Below, one piece after another: positions 7,926 to 42,839 of a DNA stretch of 64,000 nt; the first letter of the stretch is position 1, and every line of letters starts with the position of its first letter. The notes below the pieces were generated by a model. That model did no database searches and was not told where the DNA came from. It saw only the letters and a list, made by a program, of their open reading frames with translations. Made by a program: the position numbers and the translations under genes. Source of the DNA: Haliotis rufescens (taxonomy: Eukaryota); contig NW_025964383.1 in the NCBI RefSeq assembly GCF_023055435.1, positions 26,474,001 to 26,538,000 of the forward strand, read 5' to 3'.

Positions 7926-7981
7926 CTTGCATGACTTGCCAGGGTGAAGCTGAGTACAGTGTTATCATCGTAATCCACTGC
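7926..7981 (-). CDS. Cadherin exon 14 (AVDYDDNTVLSFTLASHA)
   Basis: AxDxD; tttcag acceptor, gtacgg donor; ends in phase 2. Confidence 0.88.
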
Positions 7982-9938
7982 CTGAAATAGATAACAGAAC
8001 TAGTGATAAATACGTACAGACTTACACATCAGTCTCAATAGCAGAATTACTTAGTACTTTTTGTTTTAAAGTTCTCTAAATGAAAATGGTGAGGTGAGGT
8101 GAAATGGGGTTTAACGTCGCGTTCAAGATTATTGCACTTATATAGCAACGTACATGCACGTGTGTGTGAGTGTGGCTGCTTATACTAGTCCGGACTGATG
8201 CCGATTTATAGTGCTAGCTCACTGAGATACCATGCCGTAGTTTAACATGAATACCCCACTCAGACACAGTATACTGACTCCGAGCCGACCAGTCCTTGTT
8301 TTAGCCCCTTAATGTCAAGCACCAGACAGGGTAACAACAAGTACCATCTTTTAACGTCTTTGGTATGACGCGGCCGGGGATCGAACCCCGGACGCTCTAC
8401 CACTAGACCACAATAACAATGCCAGATACACATAACATATGGTGGTCGTGATACTCTCGATGCGACGCTTACACTGTTTTCAATCAACATACCTCTAATG
8501 AAGAGAATTTATGGATGTCAGTATCTTTATTATGAGGAACAGAACGTTTCGGAGTATATGCTTACTCCTTCATCAGGTGAATTAGGTATAATCATTCACC
8601 TGATGAAAGATTTAGCATAATAAAGAAGTTGGCATCCATAAATTCTCTTCCTCGTGTGTATCACTAAATGCCTTCAAAGACTTACCTCTACTTTCGTTAT
8701 TAATTCATCTTGGACTCTTTCCCTGTCTACTGTGATCTCCTTCTGTGTGAAGACAGGGTTGTTGTCGTTAACGTCCGACACATACACCGTCACAGTGGCT
8801 GTTGTGTTCTGTAACAACAGGGTCGCATACATTTCTGGGCAGTCAACATCTACACTCACACAAGCTAAACTATAGTTGCATGAACATTACGACAGACAAA
8901 TAAAAAAGTGGGTGGGAGTGAACGCCGCTGGTAGCCATATTACTAAGGGGAGTCACAAGAAAAGAGGCCTCATGCATTGTACCACGGGGGAGTCACAATA
9001 AATTGGCTTCATATTGTATCACAGGGGAGTCACAATAAACAGGTTTCATGTATTGAACCACGTGGGGTCACAATAAATAGGTTTCATGCATTGTACTAGA
9101 AGGGAGTCATAAGGAATTGGCTTCATGCATTGTACCCGAAGAGAGTCATAAGGAATAGGTTTCATGTATTGTACTAAAAGGGAGTCACAAAAAATTGGCT
9201 CGATGCATTGAACAAAGAGGGAGTCATAAGGAATATATTTCATGTATTGTACCACATGGGGTCACAAGAAATTGGCTTCATGCATTGTACCCGAAGAGAG
9301 TCATAAGGAATAGGTTTCATGTATTGTACCACATGGGGTCACAAGAAATTGGCTTCATGCATTGTACCAGAAGAGAGTCATAAGGAATAGGTTTCATGTA
9401 TTGTACCACATGGGGTCACAAGAAATTGGCTTCATGCATTGTACCCGAAGAGAGTCATAAGGAATAGGTTTCATGCATTGTACTAAAAGGGAGTCACAAG
9501 AAATTGGCTCGATGCATTGAACAAAGAGGGAGTCATAAGGAATATATTTCATGTATTGTATTACAGGGGAGTCATAAGAAATTGGCTTCATGCATTGTAC
9601 GAGAAGAGAGTCATAAGGAATAGGCTTCATGCATTGTACCAGAGGGGAGTCAAAGGGAGGGACAGGGTTTCATGCATTAGACCACAGGGAAGTCATAATA
9701 AATTGGTTTCATGAATTGTTCCACAGGCTAGTCGAGAGAGCTGGGATTCATTCATTGCACCACATTGGAACAATTACAACAACTAAAATACCACGATATA
9801 TTGGTTGCCTCACATGTATGGTCAATTCGAAATAATATTAAAATCTTTCATTGATGTAGTTTTGAAACTGACTCAAGTAATAAAGAGTTAATCTCATCTT
9901 TGGAGTACACATCATGTGAAGCCGTAATAGCAACAATT

Positions 9939-9972
<34 letters not shown>

Positions 9973-12900
9973 CTAAACTGCCGGGCAAAAGAAAGCATAC
10001 ACCCATGTTAGATGGTTGATAAAATTGAGACAAACTAGAAATGGTTAATCGATAGCGATGTATTTGATACGGGTATTATAGTTGTATTTTTGATACCGTT
10101 TTGATAAAATTTGTAAGTTTTTGGTCAAATCCAATATTCAAGTGTTTATTTTCTTTGGTCCGACAGTATGTTTCCATGACATGATTAATTAAAATTAAGG
10201 GACATGCAACAAGGTTGTTTGGAAATGTAGCAGTGCACCAATCGGAGCTGCGCAATGACAGCAGCTAACACGGCTGAGCGAAATGTGGCAGAGTTGCACG
10301 TGGCTGGTGTATAGGTATCTACACAACACGGGCTACTTACAAACTGTCCATCAGTGGCAACTACGGGGATAGAATATTCAGTCTCTCGTTCGTAGTCCAA
10401 CGCTTGTCTCAGTTTGATGACGCCACTGCAACAACAAACATCAATGATGCAAGAAAGATGTCTCTCCATATATCACCCAATGACACTGATCCCTTGTTAA
10501 TCAATATGTTTTGTTGATTGTTCTCGACAGAGCATTCTTGAGTGCGACTCTGTCCTGGGGTGTAGAATGATGGTGACAAGCCTGATCGAGTAACACAGTG
10601 TAACGTTGAGCTATTAAAGATTTAAAAGTTAAGCTTGTCCTGGTAGACTTAAAATAAACCATCACTGGGGACAGTAATTTAAGTAGGATCTGTGCTTGAT
10701 AACATTGTTAGATAAGTAGGATCACCCAGTCCATAGTGATGGTCCCGGCAGAGCTGCAAGCATTGGCACGTTCGGATGTACACATATACAGGCAGCTGGG
10801 ACAAGATAATGGATGAACAACCTCTTCATTACAATTAGGAGCGACGTTCCGGTGTAGGTTCAACGATCCTTATCATGCAAGTGCTTGATAACGTTGTTGG
10901 AACCTACACCGAAGTGCTTGATAACGTTGTTATAACCTACACCGAAGTGCTTGATAACGTTGTTAGAACCAACACCGAAGTGCTTGATAACGTTGTTGGA
11001 ACCTACACCGAAGTGCTTGATAACGTTGTTGGAACCTACACCGAAGTGCTTGATAACGTTGTTGGAACCTACACCGAAGTGTTTGATAACGGTGTTAGAA
11101 CCTACACCGAAGTGCTTAATAACGTTGTTAGAACCTACACCGAAATGCTTGATAACGGCGTTAGAACCTACACCGAAGTGCTTGATAACGTTGTTAGAAC
11201 CAACACCGAAGTGCTTGATAACGCTGTTAGAACCTACACTCACGTGCTTGATAACGTTGTTAGAACCTACACCGAAGTGCTTGATACCGGTGTTAGAACC
11301 TACATCAAAGTGCTTGATAACGTTGTTAGGACATACACCGAAGTGCTTGATAACGTTGTTAGAACATACACCGGGGTGCTTGATAACGTTGTTAGAACCT
11401 ACCCCCAGGTGCTTGATAACGTTGTTAGAACATACACCGGAGTGCTTGATAACGTTGTTAGAACCTACACCCAGGTGCTTGATAACGTTGTTAGAACCAA
11501 CACCGAAGTGCTTGATAACGGTGTTAGAACCTACATCAAAGTGCTTGATAACGTTGTTAGGACATACACCGAAGTGCTTGATAACGTTGTTAGAACATAC
11601 ACCGGGGTGCTTGATAACGTTGTTAGAACCTACACCCAGGTGCTTGATAAAGTTGTTAGAACATACACCGGAGTGCTTGATAACGTTGTTAGAACCTACA
11701 CCCAGGTGCTTGATAACGTTGTTAGAACCAACATCGAGGTGCTTGATAACAGTGTTAGAATCAACACCGAAACGTCGCTCCTAATTGTAATAAAGAAGTT
11801 GTTCATCCATTTATGATCCTTACTTAGTGTTCCAACTTCTAAATGCCTCTCCAAGAAGTTATACAAGCAGCATATCCCTACTGCGAAAAGACAGTACAGT
11901 GAATCCTACTGTAATTGCCGCCCCCAATGATTAATATGTGATTTGGATCTGATCCTGCCCTACACTGAAACTCATCATGTTATTCAATATGTGGTGCCTC
12001 CTAAGCCTGGTCAATTCGCCTCACTTCACCAAGAAGCGAATGGGTAGGATGAGATTGAAATATTATTATACAGTGGACTTTATTTATAACGAACACGCTT
12101 ATAACGATCTGACGGATATAACGAACTGGTTTTTTTCATCCGAGCCATTTGCTGTATATATGCATATAACGAACTAGGGTTATAACGAACTATAATTAGT
12201 GGTCCCCTTGAGTTTGTTATAACCGTTGTTAACTGTATAACATAATATGCCTGGACGTGCTTGTAAACACAATATCTATTACTGAGTGTCGAAAATGGAA
12301 TTATTTCGGTTTAATATTAAAAGTGATGTTTGTAGATATTTTATTTCTCCTCACCTGTCAACATTGATCGTGAAAACATCTTCTTCTTTTGCAAATAGGT
12401 ACCGCAGTCTCGATCCCTGAAGGACAAGAAAATAACAACGCATTATAGCAATGAGTGAGTGAGTGAGTGAGTGGACGAGTGAGTGAGTGNNNNNNNNNNN
12501 NNNNNNNNNNNNNNNNNNNNNNNNNNNNNNNNNNNNNNNNNNNNNNNNNNNNNNNNNNNNNNNNNNNNNNNNNNNNNNNNNNNNNNNNNNNNNNNNNNNN
12601 NNNNNNNNNNNNNNNNNNNCGAGTAAGTGAGTGGACGGGTAAGTGGACGAGTGAGCGAGTGAGTGAGTGGACGTGTGAGTGAGTGGACGAGTGAGTGAGT
12701 GGACGAGTGAGTGAGTGAGTGGACGAGTGGATGAGTGAGTGAGTGGACGAGTGAGTGAGTGAGTGAGTGAGTGGACGAGTGAGTGAGTGAGTGGACGAGT
12801 GAGTGAGTGAGTGAGTGAGTGAACGAGTGAATGAGTGAGTGAGTGGACGAGTGAGTGAGTGGACGAGTGAGTGGACGAGTGAGCGAGTTTTACTAATAAG

Positions 12901-15072
12901 CCCTAAACAGGCTTTAAAAAAATAAAAAGCGTCAATAGTCGCTGGATCTGGAGATTACGTACAAAGTCCGTGTCTGTGGCAGTGACGGTTACAATGGTGG
13001 AACCCAGCGGCAGGCTCTCGGGGACGCTTGCTGTGTAGGCCGGCTGTTGGAAGGTGGGAGGTTTGCTGTTGATGGCGGATACCACTATTTTCAGGAAGGT
13101 CGTGTCTGTCCTGAACAAGTTGTCAATTTGTGTTGCCTGAAAGAAACAAATAGGTTTCGTCTGTGTAACATATGCATCGTTTCTGCTGTTATTAAAACTT
13201 GCATCATAAGCACGGATTCGAGTGGATATTTCGCTATAGGTTATGTACTGTTTACACCACCAGGACCAAGCCGCCTACATCGCTGGGATTCAGGCACTCC
13301 AGCATCGTTGACAGAGTGAGTGAGTATGGTTTTACGCCGCTTGTAGCAATATTCAAGCAATATCACGGCGGGGGACACCAGAAATAGGCTTCACACATTG
13401 TACCCATGTCGGGAATCGAACCCGGGTCTTCGGCGTGACGAGCGAACGCTTTAACCACCAGGCTACCCGACCGCCCCTCGTTGACAGAAGTACATGGACC
13501 TCGGAGAGATTTTGCTGAAAAATATTTAGTAATCAACTCCGTGTGCGCGGTCGGTCATAGTTAGGCTCAGAACGCTTCAGCTACATCCAGTATATAAATA
13601 CACATAGTGACAGTATATGGTCATCAAATGAGGTTTCCGTTTTGTATTTGTATTTATTTATTGATTTTTTGGTTGGTGGGGAAGAATTGCAAAAGTGCTT
13701 CAGTAGAGTGAGTGAGTGAGTAAGTTGGGTTTAACGCCGTCTTTAACAGTATTCCAGTTATATCACGGCGTGTCAGCTTAATGTGGGAGGAAAGCCCGAA
13801 GTGATGCAGGTCTCAGACGTTTACCACTTCGGTGAAACCCACGTGCACGGTAATGGCGCTGACAAACCTAGAAACCGGGATTCGAACCCACAATCATAGG
13901 TTTCTGGCGTGCCCAAGGGACGCAACTCTGCAGAGCGAATCGCGGCGCTCTAGACGACTGGGGCCCCAGTTCCCCCTGTTTGTATGGATCCAACGGTAAT
14001 TTTAAGTTTTTTTCTTTTTAATCTTACAAACTCAGATTTACTGACAAACATGATATGTATAGTTTGATAAAGTCGTATCAAAATAATTCTAAATTAAGTT
14101 TTTACCGACTGAGACGTGGGTGTGTGAGTGAGTATGATGTTATGCCGTTTGGGCATTATTCCAGCACTATCACAGGGATGGTACACAAGAAATGAGCCTC
14201 AGCCTCCCACATTGTGACCATGTGAGAAGTCGAACCTGGACCTTCGGCGTGAAGAGCGAACACTTTAACCACTAGGCTACCCGAGCGCCCCTTTAACCGA
14301 CTGAGGCTGTAGCCAGTGTGTACGGATGGTAATGACCCACCTCGATCATGATGGAGAACTCCTGGGCAGGGGGTGGGTTGTTGACGGACACTACAGCTGT
14401 GTCAGGGTCTATCTGGAAGTAGTCGTTGGTTGCTGAAATGTAAGGGATTATGTTAAAATACCCAGCCTAGATGTTGGGTTTGAATACGGTTTCTGCCAAC
14501 ATTAAGATAACACCTAGACATGCTAAAACATTGATGTGAATACATGTAAGTATATCTATAATGGATTATAACTTGTGTTTGAGCAGATATAATGTTCGAA
14601 AAACTATATTGCGACAGCTGTTTTGGTTATACGTATATCGGTTGCACAATAGTTGTTGAAGTGTACTTTCCTTAGTAGCAACAGCATTGGTAGTAATAGT
14701 AGTGGTAGTAGCAGCAGCAGAAGTAGTAGTAGTAGTTGTGTAGTAGAAGTAGTAGCGGTAGTGGTAGTAGTAGTAGTAGAAACAGCAGTAGTAGTAATAG
14801 TAGTAGTAGCAACAACAGTAATAGTAATGGTAGTAGTAGCAGTAGCAATAGTAGTAGTAGTAGTGGGAGCAGTAGAAGTAGTAGCAGTAGTCGTAGTAGA
14901 AGTAGTAGCAGCAGCAACAGCAGTAATAGTAATGGTAGTAGTAGAAGCGGCAGCAGCAGTAGTAGTAGTAGTAGTGGGAGTAGTAGTAGTAGTAGTGGGA
15001 GTAGTAGTAGTAGCAGTAGTAGTAGTAGTAGAAGTAGTAGTAGTGGGAGTAATAGTAGTAGAAGTGGGAGTA

Positions 15073-15118
<46 letters not shown>

Positions 15119-18100
15119 AAGTAGAAGCAGTAGTAGTAGTAGTAGTAGTATAATATCTCACCTTTCTTGATAGAATACCGCAGAGGGGCGTTGATTGTAA
15201 CATCTTGGTCACGTGCTGAGATGGCCTTTGTAACATTCACTACTCTCCCCTTGAACAGAAGATTACAGGAGATACTACACGGCAGCTTAAACAGTGTGTG
15301 AGTGAGTGGTTTGAGTTTAAGTGGCTTATCGCAATATTCCAGCCATATGAAGGAGGTCGAGACAAGACATGAACTTCACATAAGGTGTCCCTGTGGGGAA
15401 TGGAACCCAGGTCCTCGGCGTGGCGCCATTCCTTTAACCTCTAGACCACACCACCTCAAACAGGTGTGACAGCTCATGGACTCTTTGTAAACTAAACACA
15501 TAGATGATCTTCTTAAGACGACATCTTGAGAAAGTCAAACGAAAATTGCTTTATAAAGACACCCTAGAGGATTACGAGTAAGACGACAGACCCCCAGCAT
15601 CATATGGATGTCGTAAAGGCGACTACACGAATCGGAAGGTCAGGTTCGATGACTTCATTGAAAGCATGTCATCGTATCGCAGTTGCGTTGATCGATGCTC
15701 ATGATGTTAATCACTGGGTTGTCTGGTCAAGACTCAATTATTTAGAAACTGCCGTCATATAGCTGGAGTATTGCTGTGTGCGGCGTTAAACAACAAGCTT
15801 AGTGAATTTCGCATCCACTCTATCTAGACATGAAGACAAAAGAAGAAGATGTTTTCACGAAGAAAAAATATATATTACGTATCTTCAGTGAATCCAAATT
15901 TGAGACCAGGAACCCATACTTCAAAATGTTAACGGTACTGACATACTGATTGACCTACACGTAATGTCATGCGTCAATACCTCCAGGGTAGTCAGATTCG
16001 TATATCCTCATGTCATAACGCATTAAAAACCTGCACTCGGGAAGTAAATGACAAATAAATAAATGCAAAAATAGTGTGCAGCACTTCCTTCCGGAAGCAC
16101 CTTCACCCATATACCGTGTGCAAGTAATTACACACATGACCATGAAGGTATTTGACAGTAAATTTACACATATATCAGATTACGCTTTGTACCTTTGGTG
16201 AGAGTTCTGGTACGATTCCTGTATACGAAGGTTCGTCGAAAGCAGGAGGAAGATCATCCATGTCGACAACGTTGATGTGTAGCGTCGTTGTTGCCGTCAT
16301 CTGGGTTGCTCCACCAGTGGGCTGGTCCTGTCACAAAACACAAATTATAATTATAATTATGTATGCTTTTATCTTTAAACGAATAGCATACAAAGGGGCT
16401 ATTATTATTTATTGCAATCGTCAAAATAGGGTCTTCGTGTGTTCTTAGACCCTCCTCATTCCATAACACTGATAAGGACAAAATCTCACAGAGGTGGAAC
16501 GAGTCGTGCCTTGGTTCAATTGAATGATGTTTAACTCACCATTGCCGTGACTTGTATCGTCATGTTGGGGTTTGTTTCATAATCCAGCGGGCTGATGAGC
16601 GTAAGAGAAGTGCTAAGTGGGTTTTTAATCTCGAAGTATGACTGCAAAGAAAACAAGAACAACGTATTGAGAAAGCCAACTTTAGAATCATACAACCAAT
16701 AGCGGGCGTTTGAAAACCATGAAAACACATTGTACCTTTCGGAGTAATCGAACCATGGTCTTTGGTTATAACAGGCTCGCCGCGAATAGCTGCAAGATTG
16801 CTGATGCGGCGTTAAGCAAAACTTACTCACTCACTCATTATAATAGGCTAACGTTTTAACCACCATATTCGCCGGAGGAGATAATCTGGAAACTTTTATA
16901 CAATGTCATGTTATAAAATGAGGGTTTCTTTATCTTTCTTTATCTTGCGTCATCACTGATTTTCAGAAATCCATTCACGTCAATTTGATAACGATTTTGC
17001 TTTTACGCCCAATGAAATCTGATAATATAATATTTGACGTTGACGTTTTACATTATAGAAACACAGTGAATGTTTGGCTGAAATATGAGGGCTTTCCAGT
17101 GTTGGAGTAGACACGTGTGTGTTATATACTGACCGAGTACATCTCAGGGATGCTGTAGTAGATACGCCCATTGGAATTTTTATCTGCATCCCTGTCTGTT
17201 GCAGCAACTGGCGTTGGAATCACGCTTCCATTTGGCGTTATCTGCACATCAGTTGTAATCATCTCACCACAGAACTAAATGTTAAGTCTTTGAAAGGCAT
17301 TTAGAAGTGATACACATAAGGAAGATAATTTATGGATATCAACTTCTTTATTATGAGGAACACAACGTTGTGTTTGGAAGATAATTTATGGGTATCAACT
17401 TCTTTATCATGAGGAACACAACGTTGTGTTTGGAAGATAATTTATGGGTATCAACTTCTTTATCATGAGGAACACAACGTTGTGTTTGGAAGATAATGTA
17501 TGGGTATCAACTTCTTTATCATGAGGAACACAACGTTGTGTTTGGAAGATAATTTATCAGTATCAACTTCTTTATCATGAGGAACACAACGTTGTGTTTG
17601 GAAGATAATTTATCAGTATCAACTTCTTTATTATGAGGAACACAACGTTGTGTTTGGAAGATAATTTATCAGTATCAACTTCTTTATCATGAGGAACACA
17701 ACGTTGTGTTTGGAAGATAATTTATCAGTATCAACTTCTTTATCATGAGGAACACAACGTTGTGTTTGGAAGATAATGTATGGGTATCAACTTCTTTATC
17801 ATGAGGAACACAACGTTGTGTTTGGAAGATCATTTATCGGTATCAACTTCTTTATCATGAGGAACACAACGTTGTGTTTGGAAGATAATTTATCAGTATC
17901 AACTTCTTTATCATGAGGAACACAACGTTGTGTTTGGAAGATAATTTATCAGTATCAACTTCTTTATTATGAGGAACACAACGTTGTGTTTCTTATAATA
18001 AAGAAGCTGACCTCCATAAATTCTCTTCCCTAACATGTTGTCATTGAACATGTATGAAGTGTTGAGAACCTGTGCCATGACCTATTCATTATACAACACC

Positions 18101-21100
18101 TTAAGATGATAAACACAAGCCATATTGCTTGCGAAACGCCCCCCAAAATATTGATATAAAAGACAAAGGGTTTGCATTCGGCCAAGAACACTGCTAAGTA
18201 TTGGTCGAACGTTTCATATAAACATAGTTTGTCTTTAATAGGCTTTAATATTGCAAGACGCTTGACAAGCCGTGGAATCCTCCAGGTATTAGTGTTGGAG
18301 GCCTTAAAGAAACGTATAATGTAAACACATTTTTAGAATTTACTTGTAATTGCAATCCAGAAATAATATCTGCACAACCATGTCAAAACATAACTTGGCT
18401 CCATTTTTGCAAAAATATTTCTCAGTATATGACATTAACTACACTAGTTATAAATCGGTAACTTTCAAACAGAAATCTGTTTTGTCACAAGGATTCTCTG
18501 TGGGACTTAACACTGTTTACATTGTCTTGCCAATAACATACCTCGCTGACGTTTATGTAATAATTGTCCTCATCAAACACTGGTGGGTGGTCGTTGACAT
18601 CTTTGATCAGCATATGCACCGTGATAGCAACCTGGAATAGGATACAGTACTTACAATGTGGTACGTTTACATTGTCATAGCATCTCGATGATTACTGAGT
18701 CAGTGGGTTTAACGCCGCTTTTAACAGTGTTCCTTTTATATCACAGGGTGTCAGTTTAATGTGGGAGGAAAGCCCGAAGTGATGCAGGTCTTTCACGTTT
18801 ACCACTTTGGTGAAACACACGAGCACGGGTATGGTGCTGACAAACCTAGAAACATCACCGGGACGACCCGGGATTCGAAACCACGATCATCGGTTTCTGG
18901 CGTGCCCAAGGGACGCAACTCTTCACAGCGAATTGCGGCGCCTTAGACGACTTGGCCAAGTGTGCTCTCTCACGATTATTAACAGATTTATCCCATTATA
19001 AGTTATGCATAAACCATGACATGTTTCACTTCAGAAACACAGCTCTTCTGCCCTTAAAGAAGTTGAGCATCTTGTGAAAAGCCTAATGAGAAGCGATACC
19101 AGTGAAGATCCGGGTTACAATAGGTCTTCAGCAACCCATGCTTGTCATAAAAGGCGACTAACGGGGTCAGGTGGTCAGGTTCGCTGACTGGGTTGATGCA
19201 TGTTATCGTATCGCAAATGCGTGGATCGATGCTCATGATATCAATTACTGGATTGTCTGGTCCAGACTCGATTATTTACATAGCCGTTATATATGTTGGT
19301 TATTGTTGAGTGCGGCGTTAAACAACAAACAGACAAACAAATAATGAGACACGATAACACGATTGTTAAATGTTGATTAAGCTGGTACATGATGGTTGAT
19401 TAAGATAATACGCTTTACGCCCTATGGAATCGGCAGATAATCGAGTCAGGTTATTCTCTGGCCTTAACGTTTAGAATTTACACCTTTGTTCACAATTTAT
19501 GGTGGAAACTCTGAAAACCCCACACCCTTTCTAAAGCAGTTGTAAACTATCTTAATCGGTTAAGTGAGTGAGTGAGTATGGTTTTAAGCCGCTTGTAGCA
19601 ATATGCCAGCAATATCACGGCGGGGAACAGCAGAAATGGGCTTCACACATTGTACTCATGCTGGGAATCGAACCAGGGTCTTCGGCGTGACGAGTGAACG
19701 CTTTAACCACTAGGCGACCCGACCGCCCCTAATCGGTTAAGAACCATGAGTCAGTACTAACACATCAAAGAACAGGCAAACTCTGCAATTCACTAAAACG
19801 TTAAACGAGAAAACTTAAATAAAGGACGTTTCCGAGAAAATGGAGGTAGAAAAGGATCCTTTTACTTCACCCAACACGTGGGCACGGGTGGCCCAGTCGT
19901 CTAAGGCGACGCGATTCGCTCTGCAGAGTTACGTCCCTTGGGCACGCCAAAAACCTATGATTGTGGGTTCGAGTCCAGGTTCGCCCAGATTATGTTCTTA
20001 GGTTTGTCAGCACCATACCCGTGCTCGTGGGTTTCACCGAAGTGGAAAACGTCTGAGACCTGCATCACTTCGTGCTTTCCTCCAACATTAAGCTGACACG
20101 CCGCGATATAACTGGAATACTGTTAAAAGCGGCGTTAAAACCAACTCACTCACCCAACAGAGGGCACTGGTCAAAGTCCTGTTGGTGGTTCTTACCGTAG
20201 GTACCGGGGAGGTCGCCAGCTGACAACTCATGGAGAACTCCTCCCTTTCACTCCCTCTGTCAGCGTCCAACTTCTTGATCAGAATAATCTCCTGGCTTGT
20301 ATCATTGTAATCAAAATACGTGTTAGAATCTGCTGTGACCCTTATTTCATCGTGGGTGCCGTTGTATTGCATTTTCTTTACCACAGAACCTGAAAAAAGT
20401 AGGAAGTTACAAATATAGTATATTGGAAAGCTTCAAGCAAATTCTGTGCAGGTCTATCAATCAAAAAGTATTTTGAAAGTTGTTTAACATTAAGTTATTT
20501 GTTAAAGTGCCAAATTTTGCAGGGCCATTATAGTTTGTTAAACACACGCTCGTCATATAGTCGGAATCGTACAATGGATTCTGCTTTAGGCACAGATTTC
20601 TTATGATTGTGGAAATGTTTTTTGTTGCCTTTATTTACTCGCCAAGGAGCTGAGAATGCAATTGGGGATGAACGCTATCGATCCATGGATAACATAGGTG
20701 AGACGAAATGGGGTTCAACGTCGCGTCCAAGATTATTGCACTTATAGAGCGACGTGCATGTACGTGTGTGTGGCTGGGTGTTCTAGTCCGGACTAATGCC
20801 GAATTTATAGTGCTAGCTCACTGAGATACCATGCCGCAGTTTAACATGAATACCCCACTCAGACACAGTATACTGACTCCGAGCCGACCAGTCCTTGTTT
20901 TAGCCCCTTAATGCCGAGCGCCAGACAGGGTAACAACAAGTACCATCTTTTAACGTCTTTTGGTACGACGCGGCCGGGGATCGAACTCCGGACCTTCCGC
21001 TCTCCGGGCGGACGCCCTACCATTAGACCACGGAGGCGGTTTTTGATATAACATGGACATGATAAGATATTATACGCTTCCCTACGCTTGTGTATTAAAC

Positions 21101-22118
21101 AGCAGTATATCCCTTCGTACGCGGGCACATGGTATTGTTGTGAGTGAAAGTTTAATTATCATCATGGTACCTACCAACGGATGTACTCTCCTGGACATCG
21201 ACAAATATCTCAGTTATTTTATCGGGCAAGGGTAAACACACATCTGTAAAAATAAACAAATGTTATTGATTAATAACACAATGTATAAGGCAAACATCTG
21301 GACTAAAAGAAGCGGTTCCTGAATATGGATGCAGTTTTAGCATGTTGTTTAGATAGTGTCGTGAACAATGGATCCATATTCCGGAACAAGGGCAAGGTGG
21401 CCTAGATAGTTTCATCATCACAATTCGCTATGCGGAGCTATGATTCTTATCAGCCTGTAGTGGGTTTGAATCCCGGTTCGCCTCGAATAAGTTTCTAGTT
21501 TTGTCAGCACCATACGTGGTCGTGGATTTCACCAAAAGTGGTAAACGTATGAGACCTGCCTCACTTCGGGATTTCCTCCAACATTAAGCTGACACGCCGT
21601 GATATAACTGAAATAATGTTAAAAGCGGCGTAAAAATCAACTTATTCACTCACCCGAATCACAGATTCGGGTTTATAATGACCCTTGTGGTCAGTCGTTA
21701 CTAAACCCGTCCCGACCCGTGAAAATTCCGGGGTAGAATAGGTCTTCAGCAACCCATGCTTGCCGTAAAAGGTGACTATGCTTGTCGTAAAAGGTGACAA
21801 ACGGCTCGCTGACTTGGTTGATGCATGTCATCAATCCCAATTGCGTGGATCGATGCTCATGATATTAATCACCGGATTGTCTGGTCCAGACAACAAACAA
21901 ACTAAACCCGTCCCACCAGAGTGATAGGCCTCATTAAACTGACGTGAAGTAACTGAAATATTCATTCACATTTCTCAAAAGTCTGTCGTACATTAGCACT
22001 ATTGAGTAGCTTCAATTTGGTTTATTCTATTCACCGTACCATATACATCCACAGCCGAGGTGACTGACAACGCCAACAGCATCCACAACATCATCCTGAG
22101 TGACACGTCCATCGCCAT
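7926..22118 (-). CDS. Cadherin-related protein (PCDH15/Cad99C/CDHR5-like), 14 coding exons, 3'-incomplete
   Basis: Exons 22118-22040, 21243-21175, 20389-20196, 18631-18542, 17241-17134, 16641-16540, 16327-16193, 15249-15162, 14432-14341, 13136-12963, 12416-12355, 10425-10341, 8808-8686, 7981-7926. All are AG/GT flanked with matching phases; 1457 nt open. Motifs DVNDHPPVF, DRDAD, LDYE, DMDDLPPAF, DQD, DVNDNNPVF. The Cys pair in EC1, the DxDD linker and ATQIDN in EC3 resemble the PCDH15/Cad99C group (family assignment is inference). Confidence 0.92.
8087..8411 (-). mobile_element. tRNA-derived SINE family D (resembles molluscan Meta/V-domain SINEs)
   Basis: ccaaagacgttaaaagatggtacttg...cagtgagctagcactata body; (CACCT)n tail. 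Confidence 0.82.
8500..8685. mobile_element. Penelope-type inverted pseudo-LTR palindrome
   Basis: Arms gaagagaatttatggatg.. / ..catccataaattctcttc; inner catcaggtgaat / attcacctgatg; homologous to 17281-18030 and 56650-56735. Confidence 0.65.
8543..8580 (-). ncRNA. Minimal type I hammerhead ribozyme motif (Penelope-type)
   Basis: CTGATGA-A-GGAGTA(agcata)TACTCC-GAAACGTT on the minus strand; 6-bp stem II; stem I weak. Confidence 0.6.
8686..8808 (-). CDS. Cadherin exon 13 (NTTATVTVYVSDVNDNNPVF...ITKVE)
   Basis: DVNDNNPVF; ttacag acceptor, gtaagt donor; 123 nt. Confidence 0.93.
8945..9770. repeat. ~39-bp minisatellite (about 20 units)
   Basis: Unit approx. gggagtcataaggaataggYttcatgcattgtaccNNaa. 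Confidence 0.9.
10341..10425 (-). CDS. Cadherin exon 12 (GVIKLRQALDYERETEYSIPVVATDGQF)
   Basis: LDYE and ATDG motifs; ttgcag acceptor, gtaagt donor; phase 2-0. Confidence 0.93.
10809..11810. mobile_element. Inverted-repeat element enclosing a 33-bp x27 minisatellite (10881-11771) of a hammerhead-like unit
   Basis: Arms atggatgaacaacctcttcattacaattaggagcgacgtt / aacgtcgctcctaattgtaataaagaagttgttcatccat; unit gtgcttgataacg(t/g)tgttagaacctacaccgaa. Confidence 0.85.
12071..12235. mobile_element. Tc1/mariner-pogo type MITE
   Basis: TA-CAGT...ACTG-TA ends, internal tataacgaac repeats; second copy at 55394. Confidence 0.75.
12355..12416 (-). CDS. Cadherin exon 11 (GSRLRYLFAKEEDVFTINVDS)
   Basis: ccttcag acceptor, gtgagg donor; phase 0-2. 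Confidence 0.88.
12452..12888. repeat. (GAGT)n/(GAGTGGAC)n microsatellite with N gap 12490-12619
   Basis: Read directly from the sequence. Confidence 0.95.
12963..13136 (-). CDS. Cadherin exon 10 (ATQIDN...SAINSKPPTFQQPAYTASVPE...ATDTDF)
   Basis: 174 nt, phase 0-0; ttttcag acceptor, gtacgt donor. Confidence 0.92.
13314..13477 (-). mobile_element. SINE family A
   Basis: Full length, TSD tcgttgacaga. Confidence 0.88.
13706..13976 (-). mobile_element. SINE family C
   Basis: Near full length. Confidence 0.85.
14125..14292 (-). mobile_element. SINE family A (diverged)
   Basis: Similarity to family A; flanked by repeated accgactgag. Confidence 0.75.
14341..14432 (-). CDS. Cadherin exon 9 (ATNDYFQIDPDTAVVSVNNPPPAQEFSIMIE)
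   Basis: FxIDxxT; tttcag acceptor, gtgggt donor; phase 1-0. Confidence 0.9.
14672..15150. repeat. (TAG)n-rich microsatellite
   Basis: Read directly; starts about 10 nt after the exon 8 donor. Confidence 0.95.
15162..15249 (-). CDS. Cadherin exon 8 (GRVVNVTKAISARDQDVTINAPLRYSIKK)
   Basis: AxDxD; ttcaag acceptor, gtgaga donor; phase 0-1. Confidence 0.9.
15297..15457 (-). mobile_element. SINE family A-related (old)
   Basis: Degenerate match to family A head and tail. Confidence 0.55.
15560..15797 (+). mobile_element. SINE-like family B (diverged)
   Basis: Similarity to family B. Confidence 0.7.
16193..16327 (-). CDS. Cadherin exon 7 (DQPTGG...VVDMDDLPPAFDEPSYTGIVPELSPK)
   Basis: DxDD-PP-F linker and PE motif; 135 nt, phase 0-0. 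Confidence 0.92.
16540..16641 (-). CDS. Cadherin exon 6 (SYFEIKNP...LDYETNPNMTIQVTAM)
   Basis: LDYE motif; tttgcag acceptor, gtgagt donor; 102 nt. Confidence 0.93.
17134..17241 (-). CDS. Cadherin exon 5 (ITPNGSVIPTPVAATDRDADKNSNGRIYYSIPEMYS)
   Basis: AxDxD motif; tgcag acceptor, gtcagt donor; 108 nt. Confidence 0.9.
17281..18030. repeat. 56-bp x about 12 minisatellite inside a Penelope-type palindrome
   Basis: Unit ggaagataatttatNNNtatcaacttctttatYatgaggaacacaacgttgtgttt; closing inverted arm ataataaagaagctgacctccataaattctcttcc. Confidence 0.9.
18542..18631 (-). CDS. Cadherin exon 4 (VAITVHMLIKDVNDHPPVFDEDNYYINVSE)
   Basis: Canonical DxNDxxPxF; ttccag acceptor, gtatgt donor; 90 nt. Confidence 0.93.
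18696..18968 (-). mobile_element. SINE family C
   Basis: Near full length. Confidence 0.82.
19101..19341 (+). mobile_element. SINE-like family B
   Basis: Near full length. Confidence 0.82.
19563..19729 (-). mobile_element. SINE family A
   Basis: TSD taatcggttaag. Confidence 0.88.
19879..20153 (+). mobile_element. SINE family C
   Basis: gggcacgggtggcccagtcgtctaaggcg head; flanking repeat tcacccaaca. Confidence 0.85.
20196..20389 (-). CDS. Cadherin exon 3 (EC1: SVVKKM...KKLDADR...SCQLATSPVPT)
   Basis: ttttttcag acceptor, gtaaga donor, phase 1-0. Confidence 0.88.
20696..21040 (-). mobile_element. SINE family D
   Basis: Full length. Confidence 0.85.
21175..21243 (-). CDS. Cadherin exon 2 (DVCLPLPDKITEIFVDVQESTSVG)
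   Basis: tttttacag acceptor, gtaggt donor, 69 nt, phase 1-1, xE motif. Confidence 0.85.
21390..21654 (+). mobile_element. SINE family C (diverged, shorter head)
   Basis: Body and tail match family C. Confidence 0.7.
21714..21903 (+). mobile_element. SINE-like family B (deleted)
   Basis: TSD actaaacccgtccc. Confidence 0.8.
22040..22118 (-). CDS. Cadherin coding exon 1 (signal peptide MAMDVSLRMMLWMLLALSVTSAVDVY)
   Basis: Acceptor tcttccag lies 3 nt before the ATG, implying an upstream non-coding exon; hydrophobic signal peptide; donor G|gtacgg, phase 1. Confidence 0.8.
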
Positions 22119-22279
22119 CCCCTGGAAGACAAGAATATACATTAAAGGTGGATTCGTATCCGACAATTAGACAGGAGCAGCCTGATTGACATTGGTCATC
22201 CAGGCAGGATTGCGATAATTAGTTTCCAGCTCTCATGAACTAATTACCATAAACTCACGTATCATAAACTTCCAGTCGA

Positions 22280-23760
22280 TACCAGACTGGTGTTGATAAT
22301 ATTACCGTTCTAAAAGAAAGTCTCTTTTTGTCGTAATATTGTTTCAAATAATACATCAAACAATGCCACATATTTTAACTGAGGAAGAAGCCGGCAAAAA
22401 GCAGGCATGAGTACTGTCAACTTTTGATTTGTCTCTAAAACCTGAAGACTTTTGAAGACATGCCCAGTCCTCTTTTGTACTGGAAGCTCCCCAAGAATAC
22501 GTACAAAGAGAGATGCATTGCTTGGTCCTACAAAAGTACCACCAGAACCCAGCCTCAAAGATTACCCATAATTGTTACTATTTTTAAGGTAGGACTTTCT
22601 TTATATTCACAGAAAGTACTAGAACCCTGTTCAGTTGTGTAAAAACAGTTGATTTATAAAAAAAACTTTGTACACCACTGTCCCACACGACAAACTTAAG
22701 GAAAAACGTCATTCCTTGTGATCCATGGTGTGTTTGTTTTTAAACGAGGTGACCATAGATATATTTATGTATCTATCTTCAGAGGTTGAGGGCAATTTGT
22801 AAAAACAAAACGCAAATGTCATTTGAAATTTGCTAAGAAAACAAATGATTGACTAATTTAAAATATTTATGTGAAATTTGGGGATACGACCTTTAGGCAA
22901 GACGTAGGCATCCCCATTTGCACCAATTGTGCTCCCCTTCTTGAGGATCTTTGTTTCTTTATGCATTCGAATCCTGGTTTCTGCTCGGATGGGCAAAATA
23001 AAAAACAAAGCAATCGGATACCGTTCAATAACGGTCAAATAGCCAGTTCCCTTCCACAGATTTACCCACCCGAGCTAGAAATAAATCAGAGAAATGAGAC
23101 CGCCTCGTCTGTTTCATATTTAGGTCTTTACATAACGATTCAGAAAGACAAAATCCCTCTCTACTAGATGTATGACAAGATGGATAACTTCAACTTTCCA
23201 ATAGTCAACTACCCCTATATATTGAGCAATATTCCAGCAGTTCCAGCCTTTGGTGTCTACATTTCACAACTTTAACGTACAATGCCTAAGTGAGTGAGTG
23301 AGTGAGTGAAGGAGTTTGGTTTTACGCCGCTTTTAGCAATATTCCAGCAAAATCACGGCGGGGGATACCACAAATGGGCTTCACACATTGTACCAATGTC
23401 GGGAATCGAACCCTGGTCTTCGGCGTGACGAGCAAACGCTTTAACCACTAGGCTACCCGACCGTCCCAAGGCCTAAGTAAAACTTTCAAAAAGTGTTATA
23501 GTCGACATGTAGAGGATATTTCCAAATCTGACGCATCAGTGACAAAAGTGATGTCTGATACAATTCCCTATTTCGTCGTGTACCACATGTTCCCGTGTTT
23601 GTTCAGGTGAAAACTTGACATGCCTTTGCATGTGTTTTTGACGTGTGCCACCGGTGGGACACAAAACGCCCCCTTTTCGCGAACACCTGGTATCATCTTA
23701 ATTTGATAGTGATTCATAAACACATGCTTAGGATATAGTCGGAATCGTACAACGGACACT
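22280..23760 (+). mobile_element. Decayed Penelope-like (Naiad-type) reverse transcriptase element
   Basis: Frameshifted motifs YWK..K..YKERCIA, LYTTVPHDKLK, QDVGIPICTNCAPLL, IYPPELEI, YDKMDNFNFPIVNYPY..SNIPAVPAFGVYISQL; interrupted by a SINE at 23288-23467. Confidence 0.8.
23288..23467 (-). mobile_element. SINE family A nested in the RT remnant
   Basis: TSD gcctaagt. Confidence 0.85.
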
Positions 23761-23796
23761 AATATATGGACTCTAGATATATCATGATTATTGTAA

Positions 23797-23958
23797 GGGG
23801 CGGTCGGATAGCCTAGTGGTTAAAGTGTTCGCGCGTCACGCCGAAGACCCGGGTTCGATTCCCGACATGGGTACAATGCGTTAAGCCCATTTCTGGTGTC
23901 CCCCGCCGTGATATTGGTGGAATATTGCTTAAAGCGGCGTAAAATCATACTCACTTAC
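23797..23958 (+). mobile_element. SINE family A
   Basis: TSD atgattattgt. Confidence 0.88.
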
Positions 23959-25160
23959 TATGATTATTGTCATGGTTTTCGTCGCTGTAATTTCCAACAT
24001 CCTGGTGTGTTGGATGCCCATTCACATCCTCGTTATTCAAACAGTTTACGCGTGAAACATATTAATTATAATTAATGAAAGTCATAAAAGGAGATGTCAA
24101 AGAAAACGTAACGTTCTCGCTGTGATCGCAACTCCTTCGAAGACAAGTGTATTATTCAAGTTTTTACAACTACAAAACATTTCCGACAAACAAAGTCGAT
24201 CCATGCATACATTCATGTTGTAAACATCGACAACAACTGGAATTTTTCACGAAAATATTCCTTGTACATACAGAACGCACCTGTCAAAATGAAAACGTTT
24301 GTGTACTCGGGGCATAATTTGTATCAGTTTTTAAATAAAACATAACTACCCCACCTAGATTGGACACGTGCACAAGACAGCGAGTTTCCAAGTTAACACT
24401 CCTTCTGAAAGCTACCCTTGTGGCTAGTTCAGTACAAGTACATAGCCACTTTCAATAAAAGCGTTAAGTTCATCAGCAATATATCTCACCGAATTAATTT
24501 ACAATTGTTCTCAATAACATACAGTTTCCTTCGTGTGATAAACACACAGAAAAGCCTTTTATGACAAGATATTCAAAATGATGTCATTGTATACTACCGT
24601 CTATAAATATTCCGTGAATTGATACAGCCTTTAGAGGCACTGTCACAACAAGCGTTGTAAAATTCGGAATATTTACACTTAACAAACATCCAAATGAGAA
24701 TGACTGAGAGGTAAAATGGGTTGGGTGTTTCTTGGCGCAGACACTTCCACCCTGAAGTAGGATACTAGTTCACTATTAAGCCGTGTCGACACATTTTCCA
24801 AAGACATCCTTATGTCCGATGTGTATTTGACTAGTGGTCCTATTTGTCCCGTTGATGGCCCATCGTCTACTGGGCGGGCGTCCAACAAACAGTTTACCAA
24901 AGGGCTAAACCGCGCAACCGTCTGCTTGAGGAGAATTCAGGAGCTTCTGAACAGCTTTGAGAAGATTTAAGTTCGCTCGTCTGTTTCCTTGTTGATTATT
25001 AAAGATGTTTTTTCGCTTATTCGTTGTGTCAACTGTCTTTTCGCATGGTTTAATGTTCAGTATGATGACCATGTAAAGTTTAACTGAAAAAAGGAGAAAT
25101 TTATCCCTTCCAATTAAATTTTTCTCAGATGGTTGTATCGCTGCATATTTCTGAATATAG

Positions 25161-25306
25161 GACCGCTTCCGTGGCCTAGTGGATGGCGCGTCTATCCGGA
25201 GAGCGGAAGGTTGGTAGTTCGATTCCCGGCCGCGTAATACCAAAAGACGTTAAAAGACGGTACTTGTTCTTACCCTGCCTACGCTCGAGATTAAGGGGAT
25301 AAATGT

Positions 25307-25392
<86 letters not shown>
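25161..25392 (+). mobile_element. SINE family D 5' half followed by (CA)n
   Basis: Head matches family D; (CA) of about 40 units at 25309-25392. Confidence 0.8.
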
Positions 25393-25394
<2 letters not shown>

Positions 25395-25814
25395 ATCACT
25401 TAGATATCAAATATGACACAGATCTCGTCATGTGTATGCAAACGTAAGTACAACAAGTATTTCTGTGAAAACAATGAACGTCCCATTGACTTCAGGTATC
25501 CGTTTCATGTTGCAGCAATTCATTGGCAATTCCAAACTCCACCCCACCAACGTATGTGTCAGCAGAACATTTTTCCACACAGACCCTTGATAATGCTGAG
25601 AATTCAACAATTATTTTCAAATCTCATTCCCAAAATGCGTAATATTCATTATTAAGAAAATATTATCAGCACATATAAACAGATCGTTTGTAAGGTTTCA
25701 TATAAACCTTCTATTGGATATCTAACACACGGAAACATTGTTATCATATTAATTAAAGAGGTTGAAAGTTTTACTTATTTTTGGATAAATTCCAAAATGT
25801 CTTAAATTCATTGA

Positions 25815-26216
25815 TTTTGTTGGTTTGTTTGTTGTTTAACGCCACACTGAGCAATATTCCAGCTATATAACGGCGGTCTGTAAATAATCAAGTCTGGACC
25901 AGACAATCCAGGGATTGATATCATGAGCATCGATCCACGCAATTGGGATCGATGACATGCATCAACCAAGTCAGCGAGCCTGATCAACCGATCCCGTTAG
26001 TCGCCTTTTACGACAAGCATAGTCGCCTTTTACGTCAAGCATGGGCTACTGAAGACCTGTTCTACCCCGGATCTTCACGGGCCTTATGAAACGATGAGAT
26101 TATCTTTTCAGCGACATGTAGCATATGCCAATAAGTACAGATAAATGACGAGGAACATCTTATATTTTCTGTCATTAGACACGTGAACCTATTCTACCCC
26201 GGATCTTCACGGGTCC
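25815..26216 (-). mobile_element. Composite family B element (B head + ~95-nt segment + full B)
   Basis: TSD taaattcattga at 25803-25814 and 26217-26228. Confidence 0.8.
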
Positions 26217-27155
26217 TAAATTCATTGAGAATTGATTGCAACCACTTTAGCACCTTATGGTTTGACGTATCATGTAAGTTCTAACATTAAGACCCGAATA
26301 ATACACACATATCTAAATGTATATCTAAATAATAAATGCCCATGGGTGGTCATTACTTCTTAAATACTTGTACTTACACCCATAAAGGCCACAGAAAAAC
26401 GCCATTATTAAGAACATCAGTTGATCATAAGATACTATATAAGTGAAGCACACAGACACCGAGGACACTTTAACTTGAGGCATTGAATTTGAGACCACTC
26501 TAAATACTCAATCAACGATATCAAGAAGACTTTTGAAATACCCATGTGGGCGTCAAAACAATTTCTGTTACACGTCCTTCACACATCTCATGTCAAATTC
26601 CACTCTCCACTTGACCAACACTTAGACTGACCACACACAATGGGGAGGACGGTCCGAGATGGTACATTAGAGCCTGGTGTGAATAACGCCGTGACATCTA
26701 TAATATTCTGGTCGAACCATAAAGGTAACGTGACACCTTGAAGCGTGACGAAGTGGAATGTGTCGCCAGATAGAATACGTTATCTGGATATGTTAAGCTG
26801 GCAACAGTTGACAGCCGAGTGTGTCGTGTGACGGACTGGAACATGTGTCTTTACTCCTAGTATCAGATGAACGCGCGAAACAGGGTTCCAACTTGACATG
26901 ATGAGTTTACCTCGCCATACCTGAATAATTTTAAATAACGTCAACTGCAGATCTACAATTAATTCAGGATGTTGCCCTGAAACGTTGCGTATGTATAATA
27001 ATTTTTTTATTCATGATGCTCCTTGTCAGCACGATGGCATAGTGCATACACAGGTTCGTGTCTATTTCTGTGTTCTACTAAATATTCAGATAAATATCAA
27101 TGCTTTTGTTGATTGTAATTACTCTAGCCTGGGCCAGATAATCTAATGGGGGGAG

Positions 27156-27436
27156 GTCACGGGTGGCCCAGTCGTCTAAGGCGCCGTGATTCGCTGTGTG
27201 CAGAGTTGCGTCCCTTGTGCACGCTAGAAACCATTGATTGTGGGTTCGAATCCATGTTCGCCCAAATTTTGTTTCTAGGTTTGTCAACACCATACAAGTG
27301 CTCGTGGGTTTCACCGAAGTGGTAAACATCTGAGACCTGCATCACTTCAGGCTTTCCTCCCACATTAAGCTGACACGCCGCGATATTACTGGAATACTGT
27401 TAAAAGCGGCGTTAAACCCAACTCACTAACTCACTC
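27156..27436 (+). mobile_element. SINE family C (abutted by a reverse family B head at 27438-27507)
   Basis: Full length. Confidence 0.85.
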
Positions 27437-27891
27437 AATCCCGTTGGTCGCCTCTTACGACAAGCATGGGTTGCTGAAGACCTTTTCTGATCCGGATCAT
27501 CATGGGTGTTGCTAGCACTTATGTTGACTGATGTGTTATATTACATGACACATTTGCCTGACATAATTGTACTGACATGTAACATAATCATAACAGAAGA
27601 CAAGACAACGAATGTCATTCAAACTCTGGAGAACGGACCAGATCGGTACACACTCGATCTCCTGACAACACTACAATCAAATTGACGCCTGTCCAGGTAA
27701 CATAGGAGTCTGCCAAGCAGACAGGCGTTAAAACGTATTGACTGAAGCAACACGGAACAGGAAGGCTGCTCTTAACACTAATATCTGACCCGCTCAGCTG
27801 ACTCCAAGCTGATCGGTTGATCGTACCACAATCTTGATTGACGTTCGGATAAAATACACGAATGCATGACCTTATTGTCCGGAAACTTAAG

Positions 27892-28054
27892 AGTGAGTGA
27901 GTATGGTTTTACGCCGCTTTTAGCAATATTCCAGCAATATTAAGGCGGGGGACACCAGAAATGGGCTTCACACAATGTACCCATGTCGGGAATCGAACCC
28001 CGGTCTTCGGCGTGACGAGCGAACGCTTTAACCACTAGGCTATCCGACCGCCCC
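27892..28054 (-). mobile_element. SINE family A
   Basis: TSD ccggaaactt. Confidence 0.88.
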
Positions 28055-28261
28055 GGAAACTTTAGAGTTTACAAGTGCGATTATTGCTGAGAACACATAG
28101 AGCTATCTTTGGTATATCTGAATTAAATGATTTGACATGCATCTTTATACGATGTTTATTTCAAGCTATTTGTTTTACTTAGATCAAAATCTTCCGTTCC
28201 ACAGTCCAATGTTGCATCACATGATTAATCACGTGTGAATTATGTTTGAACATCATGGCTT

Positions 28262-28420
28262 TTGTGTTTTTTGTTTGTTGTTTGCCGCATTCAGAAATAA
28301 TCCAGCTATATGACGGAGGTGTGTAAATAATCGAGTCTGGACCAGACAATCCAGTAATTGACATCATGAGCATCGACCTACGCAAATGGGATACGATGGC
28401 ATGCATCAACCAAGTCAGGG
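28262..28420 (-). mobile_element. Family B 3' fragment
   Basis: Sequence similarity to family B. Confidence 0.75.
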
Positions 28421-29773: not shown

Positions 29774-30052
29774 AGTGAGTGAGTGGGTTTTTACGCCGCT
29801 TTAACAGTATTCCAGTTATATCACAGCGTGTCAGCTTAATGTGGGAGGAAAGCCCGAAGTGATGCAGGTCTCAGGTCTCAGCTGTTTACCACTTGGGTGA
29901 AACCTACGAGCACGGGTATAGTGCTGACATACCTAAAAACATAATATGGGTGAACCGGGATTCGAACCAACCATCATAGGTTTCTGGTGTGTCCAAGGGA
30001 CGCAACTCTGCACAGCGAATTGCGGCGCCTCAAACGACTGGGTCACTCGTGC
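29774..30052 (-). mobile_element. SINE family C (partial duplicate at 29710-29755)
   Basis: Full length. Confidence 0.83.
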
Positions 30053-30241
30053 CATGCATGCCCCCATCCCGTCTGCATAAAGCGATCGTATAAATGGACC
30101 ATGGTATGAAAGTAATAGGATACTTTTATTTTAAGACATTTAATATCATTTATGTCATATACACAACAATGCTCTGTTTTGTTATATTCAGTGTTTCGCT
30201 ATATCCACCTTCGTTACATCAGTATGCCGAGGGCGTTGTTA

Positions 30242-39598: not shown

Positions 39599-39695
39599 CG
39601 TTTCTGAGTCATACGTTAAAAACGAAGGAAGCTGACTGGTTTAATCCTACCTGAAATATAATCATTTAAAAGGTTAGAGCCATCTCTGAAGGTAA

Positions 39696-42027: not shown

Positions 42028-42090
<63 letters not shown>

Positions 42091-42808: not shown

Positions 42809-42839
<31 letters not shown>

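What the first reader, a model, noticed from the sequence alone, without database searches (positions are those of the whole stretch)
12368..15860. Perfect 24-nt intronic reverse complement of a cadherin exon, 3.4 kb upstream in the same pre-mRNA
Seen: 15837-15860 (caaaagaagaagatgttttcacga, intron 7, apparently unique DNA) is the exact reverse complement of 12368-12391 in exon 11 (codons A-K-E-E-D-V-F-T). One further G-U pair is possible. A chance 24-mer is very unlikely in 64 kb (roughly 1e-5 for uniform composition, somewhat higher given low complexity). The covered exon segment contains a GAAGAAGA purine-rich enhancer-like motif and many adenosines. Pairing would loop out exons 8-10 (354 nt, in frame, about one EC repeat including the atypical linker). 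Inference: a candidate long-range splicing switch or ADAR editing-complementary sequence; alternatively a templated repair insertion. On the plus strand the copy also lies in a 39-codon ORF (MKTKEEDVFTKKK...).
Basis: partly seen in the sequence, partly recalled or inferred. Interest (0 to 1): 0.72.

Follow-up and report, generated by a model that had tools for sequence, protein, structure and literature searches.

The report
Backwards exon scrap in abalone intron
A 24-letter piece of an abalone cadherin exon sits backwards in an intron of the same gene and could pair with the exon in the RNA, but a close relative carries the intron copy three letters shorter, so it is most likely a harmless scar of DNA copying and not an editing or splicing switch.

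Summary
15837-15860 is the exact reverse complement of 12368-12391. The word occurs at only these 2 places in the 1.33-Gb genome, even with 2 mismatches, and two other individuals carry it, so it is neither a repeat nor a misassembly. The host is a Haliotis cadherin gene.

The regulatory reading finds no support. In a close relative (2 of 2 runs, two studies) the only indel in 194 nt falls inside the intronic arm and removes one AAG, leaving 18 contiguous pairs. None of 12 annotated Haliotis isoforms skips these exons. The proposed 354-nt loop-out is in frame but 14 residues out of register with the cadherin repeat and deletes a DxD motif. In 1.66 Mb of this contig, three other genome-unique local copies (18-21 nt) exist, so short local copying occurs here; this one is the longest.

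Best reading: a likely neutral templated insertion (0.70). Editing and exon skipping in RNA reads, the relative's exon DNA and an empty ancestral site were not seen, so a young functional duplex stays open (about 0.1).

The parts
12368..12391 (-). Exonic arm (likely template): 24 nt inside coding exon 12, codons A-K-E-E-D-V-F-T, 25 nt from the acceptor and 13 nt from the donor; 11 of 24 bases are A in the mRNA
15837..15860 (+). Intronic arm (likely the copy): exact reverse complement of the exonic arm in the pre-mRNA, in intron 8, 332 nt after the exon 8 donor and 587 nt before the exon 9 acceptor; genome-unique
15840..15848 (+). AAG triplet run inside the intronic arm; organism B has 3 nt left out here
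   Evidence: table 4, runs X6 and X11
12355..12416 (-). Coding exon 12 (62 nt) of the cadherin gene; skipping it alone would shift the frame
12963..13136 (-). Coding exon 11 (174 nt), between the arms; ends just after the A-T-D-T-D motif
14341..14432 (-). Coding exon 10 (92 nt), between the arms
15162..15249 (-). Coding exon 9 (88 nt), between the arms; carries the A-R-D-Q-D motif
16193..16327 (-). Coding exon 8; no difference listed for organism B, against about 4% in the intron beside it
15595..15796 (.). Interspersed repeat copy (about 12 relatives in the window, thousands of contigs laid on it) 40 nt from the intronic arm
15830..15949 (+). 39-codon ORF that overlaps the copy; likely not a gene (218 such ORFs in the window; 4 of 6 organism-B substitutions change the residue)
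7926..52118 (-). Host gene: Haliotis cadherin; the 15 exons found in the window match P0007 (H. rufescens XP_046349140.2, 794 aa, automatic name protocadherin gamma-A1-like); later exons lie left of the window

Best explanation
The intronic 24-mer is a real, genome-unique inverted copy of part of exon 12 and is likely a neutral templated insertion: a germ-line break or stalled fork in intron 8 likely switched briefly to the exon a few kb away, copied about 24 nt from the opposite strand and returned. Shown: the match, its uniqueness, its presence in other individuals and, 3 nt shorter, in a close relative. Inferred: the direction (exon to intron, because the exon fits the protein in four species), the repair mechanism, an origin before organisms A and B split, loss of one AAG by slippage in B, and absence of selected function. 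The pre-mRNA could form the helix (about -38 kcal/mol), but only if intron 8 is still unspliced when exon 12 is made; any such pairing would be a by-product.
For: Two places genome-wide; chance 1.3e-5 per window and about 0.003 per genome for an exon-to-nearby 24-mer under assumed gene numbers, so it was copied rather than matched by luck. Sharp edges: no similarity in 60-nt flanks. Not conserved as a helix: in organism B (2 of 2 runs laid, studies P3 and P5) the only indel in 15792-15985 lies in the arm, which cuts the contiguous match to 18 nt and the duplex from -38.4 to -29.1 kcal/mol. Zero substitutions in the arm is unremarkable at the flank rate of 7 in 170 (P = 0.36). Local copying happens in this genome: in 1.66 Mb, 3 other genome-unique pairs (direct 21 nt at 445, inverted 19 nt at 793, inverted 18 nt at 5674). 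Two of 19 nt or more within 0.1-5 kb were seen against 0.07 expected from far pairs (P = 0.002), and no pair of 22 nt or more lies over 20 kb apart. Inverted templated insertions are common human germ-line variants, about 100 of 25 bp or more per person (PMC8421209, passages). The sequence shows GAAGA on both sides of the insert's ends, compatible with microhomology (by eye, low complexity).
Against: No empty site was seen: all 4 runs laid carry the element, so insertion is inferred, not shown. The comparators are few (3) and all shorter; after removing transposon ends and multi-copy words, this is the only genome-unique pair of 22 nt or more in 1.66 Mb. The papers read define templates within 100 bp (PMC8421209) or 25 bp (PMC9834056) of the insertion; 3.4 kb, or 1.5 kb if the 1,910 nt of repeats between the arms came later, is far beyond those search windows. 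The element has persisted in two taxa with no substitution. Organism B's exon 12 DNA was not read, so a matching exonic change is only made unlikely by the protein alignment. RNA was not examined at the site.
Confidence: 0.7

Rival explanations
1. Functional exon-intron duplex: an editing-complementary sequence that lets ADAR recode K/E/E/D/T codons, or a helix that hides a purine-rich enhancer and promotes skipping of exon 12 (frameshift, decay) or of exons 9-11.
For: Predicted helix of 25 pairs, -38.4 kcal/mol, in the most stable class of human conserved complementary regions, where editing sites are most enriched (PMC8052449, passages). 11 adenosines in the exonic arm. Abalone has ADAR1 and ADAR2 homologues (PMC6651903, passages). 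The arm has no substitution in 4 of 4 runs and organism B still pairs 20 bp. Both arms are about half unpaired in their local folds.
Against: The sole indel in 194 nt hits the arm in organism B. 0 of 12 annotated isoforms skip these exons. The exon 8-to-12 join is 14 residues out of register and loses A-x-D-x-D. The arm sits four introns upstream of its target. Inverted repeat pairs in the same pre-mRNA give far stronger duplexes, -285 to -397 kcal/mol for three tested, among 599 inverted pairs in the window.
Confidence: 0.12
2. Chance plus slippage: an accidental 18-nt match in A/G-rich intron DNA (the organism-B state) gained one AAG in organism A and so became 24 nt; nothing was ever copied.
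For: An 18-nt exon-to-nearby inverted match is expected about 10 times per genome under assumed gene numbers. The A/B difference is one triplet in a triplet run, and polarity is unknown without an outgroup.
Against: Even the B form matches 21 of the 24 positions with one 3-nt bulge, and exact 21-mers are expected only about 0.17 times per genome. The route also needs the one slip that perfects the match. The 18-nt core is itself at only these 2 places genome-wide.
Confidence: 0.13
3. Repeat fragment, transposon end or assembly artefact.
For: Of 9 other isolated matches of 18 nt or more at 0.1-20 kb, 2 flank transposase-like ORFs, 1 has a target-site-like duplication and 3 are multi-copy words, so most such pairs here are mobile-element ends.
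Against: Only 2 places genome-wide. One arm is coding sequence conserved in four species. Contigs of X3 and X5 cross the intronic arm without a gap.
Confidence: 0.02
4. The copy is part of a small antisense peptide gene (39 codons).
For: ATG-to-stop frame at 15830-15949; the 3-nt loss in B keeps the frame.
Against: 218 ORFs of this size or more occur in the window, and 4 of 6 organism-B substitutions are non-synonymous.
Confidence: 0.01

Closest known systems
Templated insertions from template switching or end joining (MMBIR-type MMB-TIs, PMC8421209 passages; polymerase-theta templated inserts, PMC9834056 passages)
   Same: Short insert, inverted relative to a unique template on the same chromosome, sharp edges, inherited in the germ line, possible microhomology at the ends.
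   Different: Template is 3.4 kb away, outside the 25-100 bp windows those papers used; no empty allele was found here, so junction microhomology cannot be scored properly.
Editing-complementary sequences of ADAR recoding sites (GluA2 Q/R type, recalled; BLCAP upstream-intron type, seen only in earlier scan notes)
   Same: Intronic stretch complementary to coding sequence of the same pre-mRNA; A-rich target.
   Different: Those are conserved, usually imperfect duplexes in an intron next to the exon (recalled). This one is short, perfect, four introns away, broken by an indel in a close relative, and no editing is shown.
Pairs of conserved complementary regions that loop out exons (PMC8052449, passages)
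   Same: Long-range, near-perfect helix below -30 kcal/mol with exons between the arms.
   Different: Those are defined in conserved intronic regions and supported by compensatory change. Here one arm is exonic, conservation is not shown, and no skipped isoform is annotated.
Terminal inverted repeats of Tc1/mariner elements and MITEs
   Same: Isolated inverted exact match of 20-32 nt a few kb apart; several turned up in my background scan.
   Different: Single-copy, one arm in conserved coding sequence, host exons and no transposase between the arms.

Membership tests
Templated insertion (MMBIR/TMEJ type) | Insert identical to a unique template elsewhere, often inverted | tested here: met
Templated insertion (MMBIR/TMEJ type) | Similarity stops sharply; flanks unrelated | tested here: met
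   flank scores 16 and 11, below the isolation cut-off of 20
Templated insertion (MMBIR/TMEJ type) | Empty ancestral allele without the insert | tested here: inconclusive
   present in 4 of 4 runs laid; no outgroup DNA run was among the 24 listed
Templated insertion (MMBIR/TMEJ type) | Microhomology at the junctions | tested here: inconclusive
   GAAGA on both sides by eye; cannot be scored without the empty allele
Templated insertion (MMBIR/TMEJ type) | Template close to the break (25-100 bp in the papers read; a search setting more than a definition) | tested here: not met
   3,445 nt between arms, 1,535 nt without repeats; PMC8421209 notes that distant templates were not searched
ADAR editing-complementary sequence | Can form an exon-intron duplex in the pre-mRNA | tested here: met
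   predicted 25 bp, -38.4 kcal/mol
ADAR editing-complementary sequence | A-to-G differences between RNA and DNA in the paired exon | not tested
   no RNA reads over exon 12 were obtained
ADAR editing-complementary sequence | Intronic arm conserved above its flanks, with compensation | tested here: inconclusive
   one close relative only: an indel in the arm, 0 substitutions (P = 0.36); its exon DNA unread
Long-range splicing duplex (PCCR type) | Alternative isoform lacking the looped or masked exons | tested here: not met
   0 of 12 annotated proteins; annotation misses rare or decayed isoforms
Long-range splicing duplex (PCCR type) | Arms lie in conserved intronic regions with covariation | tested here: inconclusive
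   too few species
Transposon terminal inverted repeats | Multi-copy in the genome and flanking a mobile element | tested here: not met
   2 places only; host exons lie between the arms

The most novel reading that the evidence does not exclude
A repair scar caught becoming an RNA control element: the copied 24-mer pairs with exon 12 across three exons and gives red abalone low-level, lineage-specific ADAR recoding of the K-E-E-D stretch or decay-coupled skipping of exon 12, with a one-triplet difference tuning the helix between sister taxa. That would be a natural experiment on how editing-complementary sequences are born.
Probability: 0.1. Interest if true: 0.6.

Novelty: new member of a known kind. 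Interest (0 to 1): 0.17.

Why it matters
As a neutral scar it matters little. It is one more short inverted exon copy in its own intron, a pattern this scan has noted in other genomes, and a caution that a perfect, statistically unlikely complement need not be functional. It has modest value as a test case: two close taxa differ by one triplet in the helix, so one RNA-seq comparison would show whether a newborn 24-bp duplex spanning four introns is enough to recruit ADAR or shift splicing.

Tried and rejected
Repeat family or misassembly: rejected.

Empty-site copies of the flank elsewhere in the genome: none found.

Clean one-repeat deletion by loop-out: rejected, 118 residues removed against a period of 104.

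Other exon-intron copies in this gene: for 15 exons (1,485 nt) the best other match in the window is 13 nt.

First reading of the background scan: the 32-nt and 27-nt inverted pairs at 1.2 and 1.5 kb looked like the same class. They enclose transposase-like ORFs (family judged from recalled Tc1/mariner motifs, no profile scan) and were dropped. So were a 20-nt pair with an 8-nt outer direct repeat (read, not searched genome-wide) and three multi-copy words (39, 8 and 7 places). Two direct pairs under 100 nt apart were treated as tandem repeats.

Small peptide gene: rejected.

Run X20 (share 0.09) was ignored.

Literature search for Haliotis, cadherin, RNA editing and alternative splicing (3 of 4 terms; 10 of 460 papers listed, none mentioning Haliotis) found no report of this element; this is a weak negative.

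Earlier scan notes near this place: none; one word search was empty.
Full report
Observation. Window 15837-15860 is the exact reverse complement of 12368-12391. From base composition, an inverted exact match of 24 nt or more is expected 1.3e-5 times in 64 kb. The word stands at exactly these two places in the 1.33-Gb genome, with 0 or with up to 2 mismatches, and so does its 18-nt right part. A BLAST of 15797-16180 finds only itself. The match does not extend into either flank. The intronic arm lies 40 nt from an interspersed repeat at 15595-15796 but is not part of it.

Host gene. An exon query found Haliotis cadherins. The window's exons match P0007, H. rufescens XP_046349140.2, 794 aa, which has Pfam Cadherin domains. 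The gene is on the minus strand. Counting a short first coding exon at 52095-52118, the exonic arm is in coding exon 12 (12416-12355, 62 nt) and the intronic arm is in intron 8. Exons 9-11 between them total 354 nt, in frame.

Other individuals and a relative. One run search listed 24 runs. I laid 4 DNA contig sets on 15750-16400: X3 and X5 (organism A, the label of the possible source run) and X6 and X11 (organism B, two studies). In X3 one contig crosses the arm without a gap; its depth, 33 against about 57 beside it, may mean only one haplotype is shown. In X5 two haplotype contigs that differ at 15829 both run to 15859 without a gap, and a third covers 15830-15985 unchanged. The arm is therefore no assembly artefact. 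In both B runs a single contig covers 15792-15985 with 7 substitutions, none in the arm, and one 3-nt gap at 15840, inside the arm's AAG run. Exon 8 shows no listed difference in B. Zero substitutions in 24 nt has P = 0.36 at the flank rate. The B form matches the window's exon over 18 contiguous nt, and its predicted duplex is -29.1 against -38.4 kcal/mol. B's own exon 12 was not read. All 12 annotated proteins from four Haliotis species keep the full A-K-E-E-(D/N)-V stretch, so a matching exonic deletion is unlikely. Contigs drop rare variants, and polarity between A and B is unknown.

Splicing and editing idea. None of the 12 annotated isoforms lacks exons 9-11 or exon 12; they differ at the N-terminus and by a 5-residue piece behind the membrane segment. 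The P-E motifs of the two repeats concerned are 104 residues apart, but the loop-out removes 118. Joining exon 8 to exon 12 would therefore drop the strand ending in A-x-D-x-D, a calcium-binding motif of cadherins (recalled). Masking exon 12 itself (62 nt) would shift the frame. The helix needs intron 8 to persist until exon 12 is made, three exons later (inference). The pre-mRNA is rich in stronger rivals: 599 inverted pairs in the window, with three tested pairs at -285 to -397 kcal/mol. In favour of function: the helix falls in the most stable class of human conserved complementary regions, where editing is most enriched (PMC8052449, passages); abalone has ADAR homologues (PMC6651903, passages); and the target has 11 adenosines. 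The GAAGAA enhancer label is recalled and untested. No RNA reads over exon 12 were obtained, so editing and rare skipping are untested.

Background. I scanned 1.66 Mb of the same contig in three blocks, window included. 10,490 exact matches of 17 nt or more were filtered to 8,371 by length and complexity, 462 with unrelated flanks and 97 without repeat hits. Ten of these are 18 nt or more and 0.1-20 kb apart, this finding among them. Of the other 9, two enclose transposase-like ORFs, one has an 8-nt outer direct repeat, three are multi-copy words and three are genome-unique pairs: direct 21 nt at 445, inverted 19 nt at 793 and inverted 18 nt at 5674. Pairs over 20 kb apart give 22 matches of 18 nt or more and none of 22 nt or more. 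At that rate 0.07 matches of 19 nt or more are expected within 0.1-5 kb, against 2 genome-unique ones seen besides the finding (P = 0.002). Short local copying thus occurs in this genome, though this pair is the longest such case in the sample and the comparators are few.

Mechanism. The most likely history (inferred) is a brief template switch during repair or replication that copied about 24 nt of exon 12 into intron 8 in inverted orientation before A and B split, followed by triplet slippage in B. Inverted templated insertions are common human germ-line variants (PMC8421209, passages). That paper and PMC9834056 (passages) looked only within 100 and 25 bp of the insertion, and the first notes that distant templates were not searched. 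Here the distance is 3,445 nt, or 1,535 nt without the intervening repeats. Copying from the gene's own nascent RNA cannot be told from DNA copying, because the insert crosses no splice junction. Chance plus slippage is the main non-copying rival: 18-mers of this kind are expected about 10 times per genome and 21-mers 0.17 times, assuming 30,000 genes with 1.5 kb of exon each. The overlapping 39-codon ORF is ordinary.

Comparison and verdict. It works like a templated insertion; membership is met for identity, uniqueness and sharp edges, open for the empty allele and microhomology, and the template is farther than in the papers read. It resembles an editing-complementary sequence or splicing duplex only in being able to pair. 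Earlier scan notes list 17 findings in at least 11 genomes under the words inverted, copy, exon, intron, duplex. Of the 8 shown, 5 were judged copying debris, 2 unproven and 1 a conserved editing guide (unchecked leads). One literature search found no report on this gene (listing only; searches also seen as listings). No supplements were read. Verdict: real, non-random, most likely neutral; new member of a known kind; interest 0.17.

Noticed in passing
L145:6080-7643 (G000:C605:40216080-40217643): 27-nt inverted ends 1.5 kb apart around an uninterrupted 362-residue stop-to-stop frame that reads like a Tc1 transposase (family from recalled motifs); possibly a young, intact element.
   Followed up: partly
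L109:7618-8888 (G000:C605:10257618-10258888): 32-nt inverted ends 1.2 kb apart around a mariner-like transposase split over two overlapping frames.
   Followed up: partly
L014:1642-6060 (G000:C605:26375642-26380060): 20-nt inverted word with 39 places genome-wide, often as +/- pairs about 3.4-3.7 kb apart: likely the ends of a low-copy DNA transposon family.
   Followed up: partly
L023:351-816, L004:7794-8605, L117:9740 with L118:5414: Three genome-unique short local copies (direct 21 nt, inverted 19 nt, inverted 18 nt), candidate templated insertions of the same class.
   Followed up: partly
window 15829-16121: Two deeply diverged intron-8 haplotypes segregate in organism A; the alternative one shares many substitutions and a 39-nt replacement at 15985-16025 with organism B, suggesting old shared polymorphism or introgression.
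   Followed up: no
window 12943-13136 and P0007 residues 349-357: The linker between the third and fourth cadherin repeats reads A-I-N-S-K-P-P in place of D-x-N-D-x-x-P in all 12 Haliotis proteins, so one calcium-binding junction is likely lost.
   Followed up: no
left of the window, P0007 residues 588-592: A 5-residue piece just behind the membrane segment is present or absent in isoforms of all four species: a conserved alternative splice, perhaps a micro-exon.
   Followed up: no
window 22122-52094: The first coding exon (8 codons) is separated from the second by a 30-kb intron.
   Followed up: no
window 43676-43775: Four tandem copies of a 22-nt unit.
   Followed up: no
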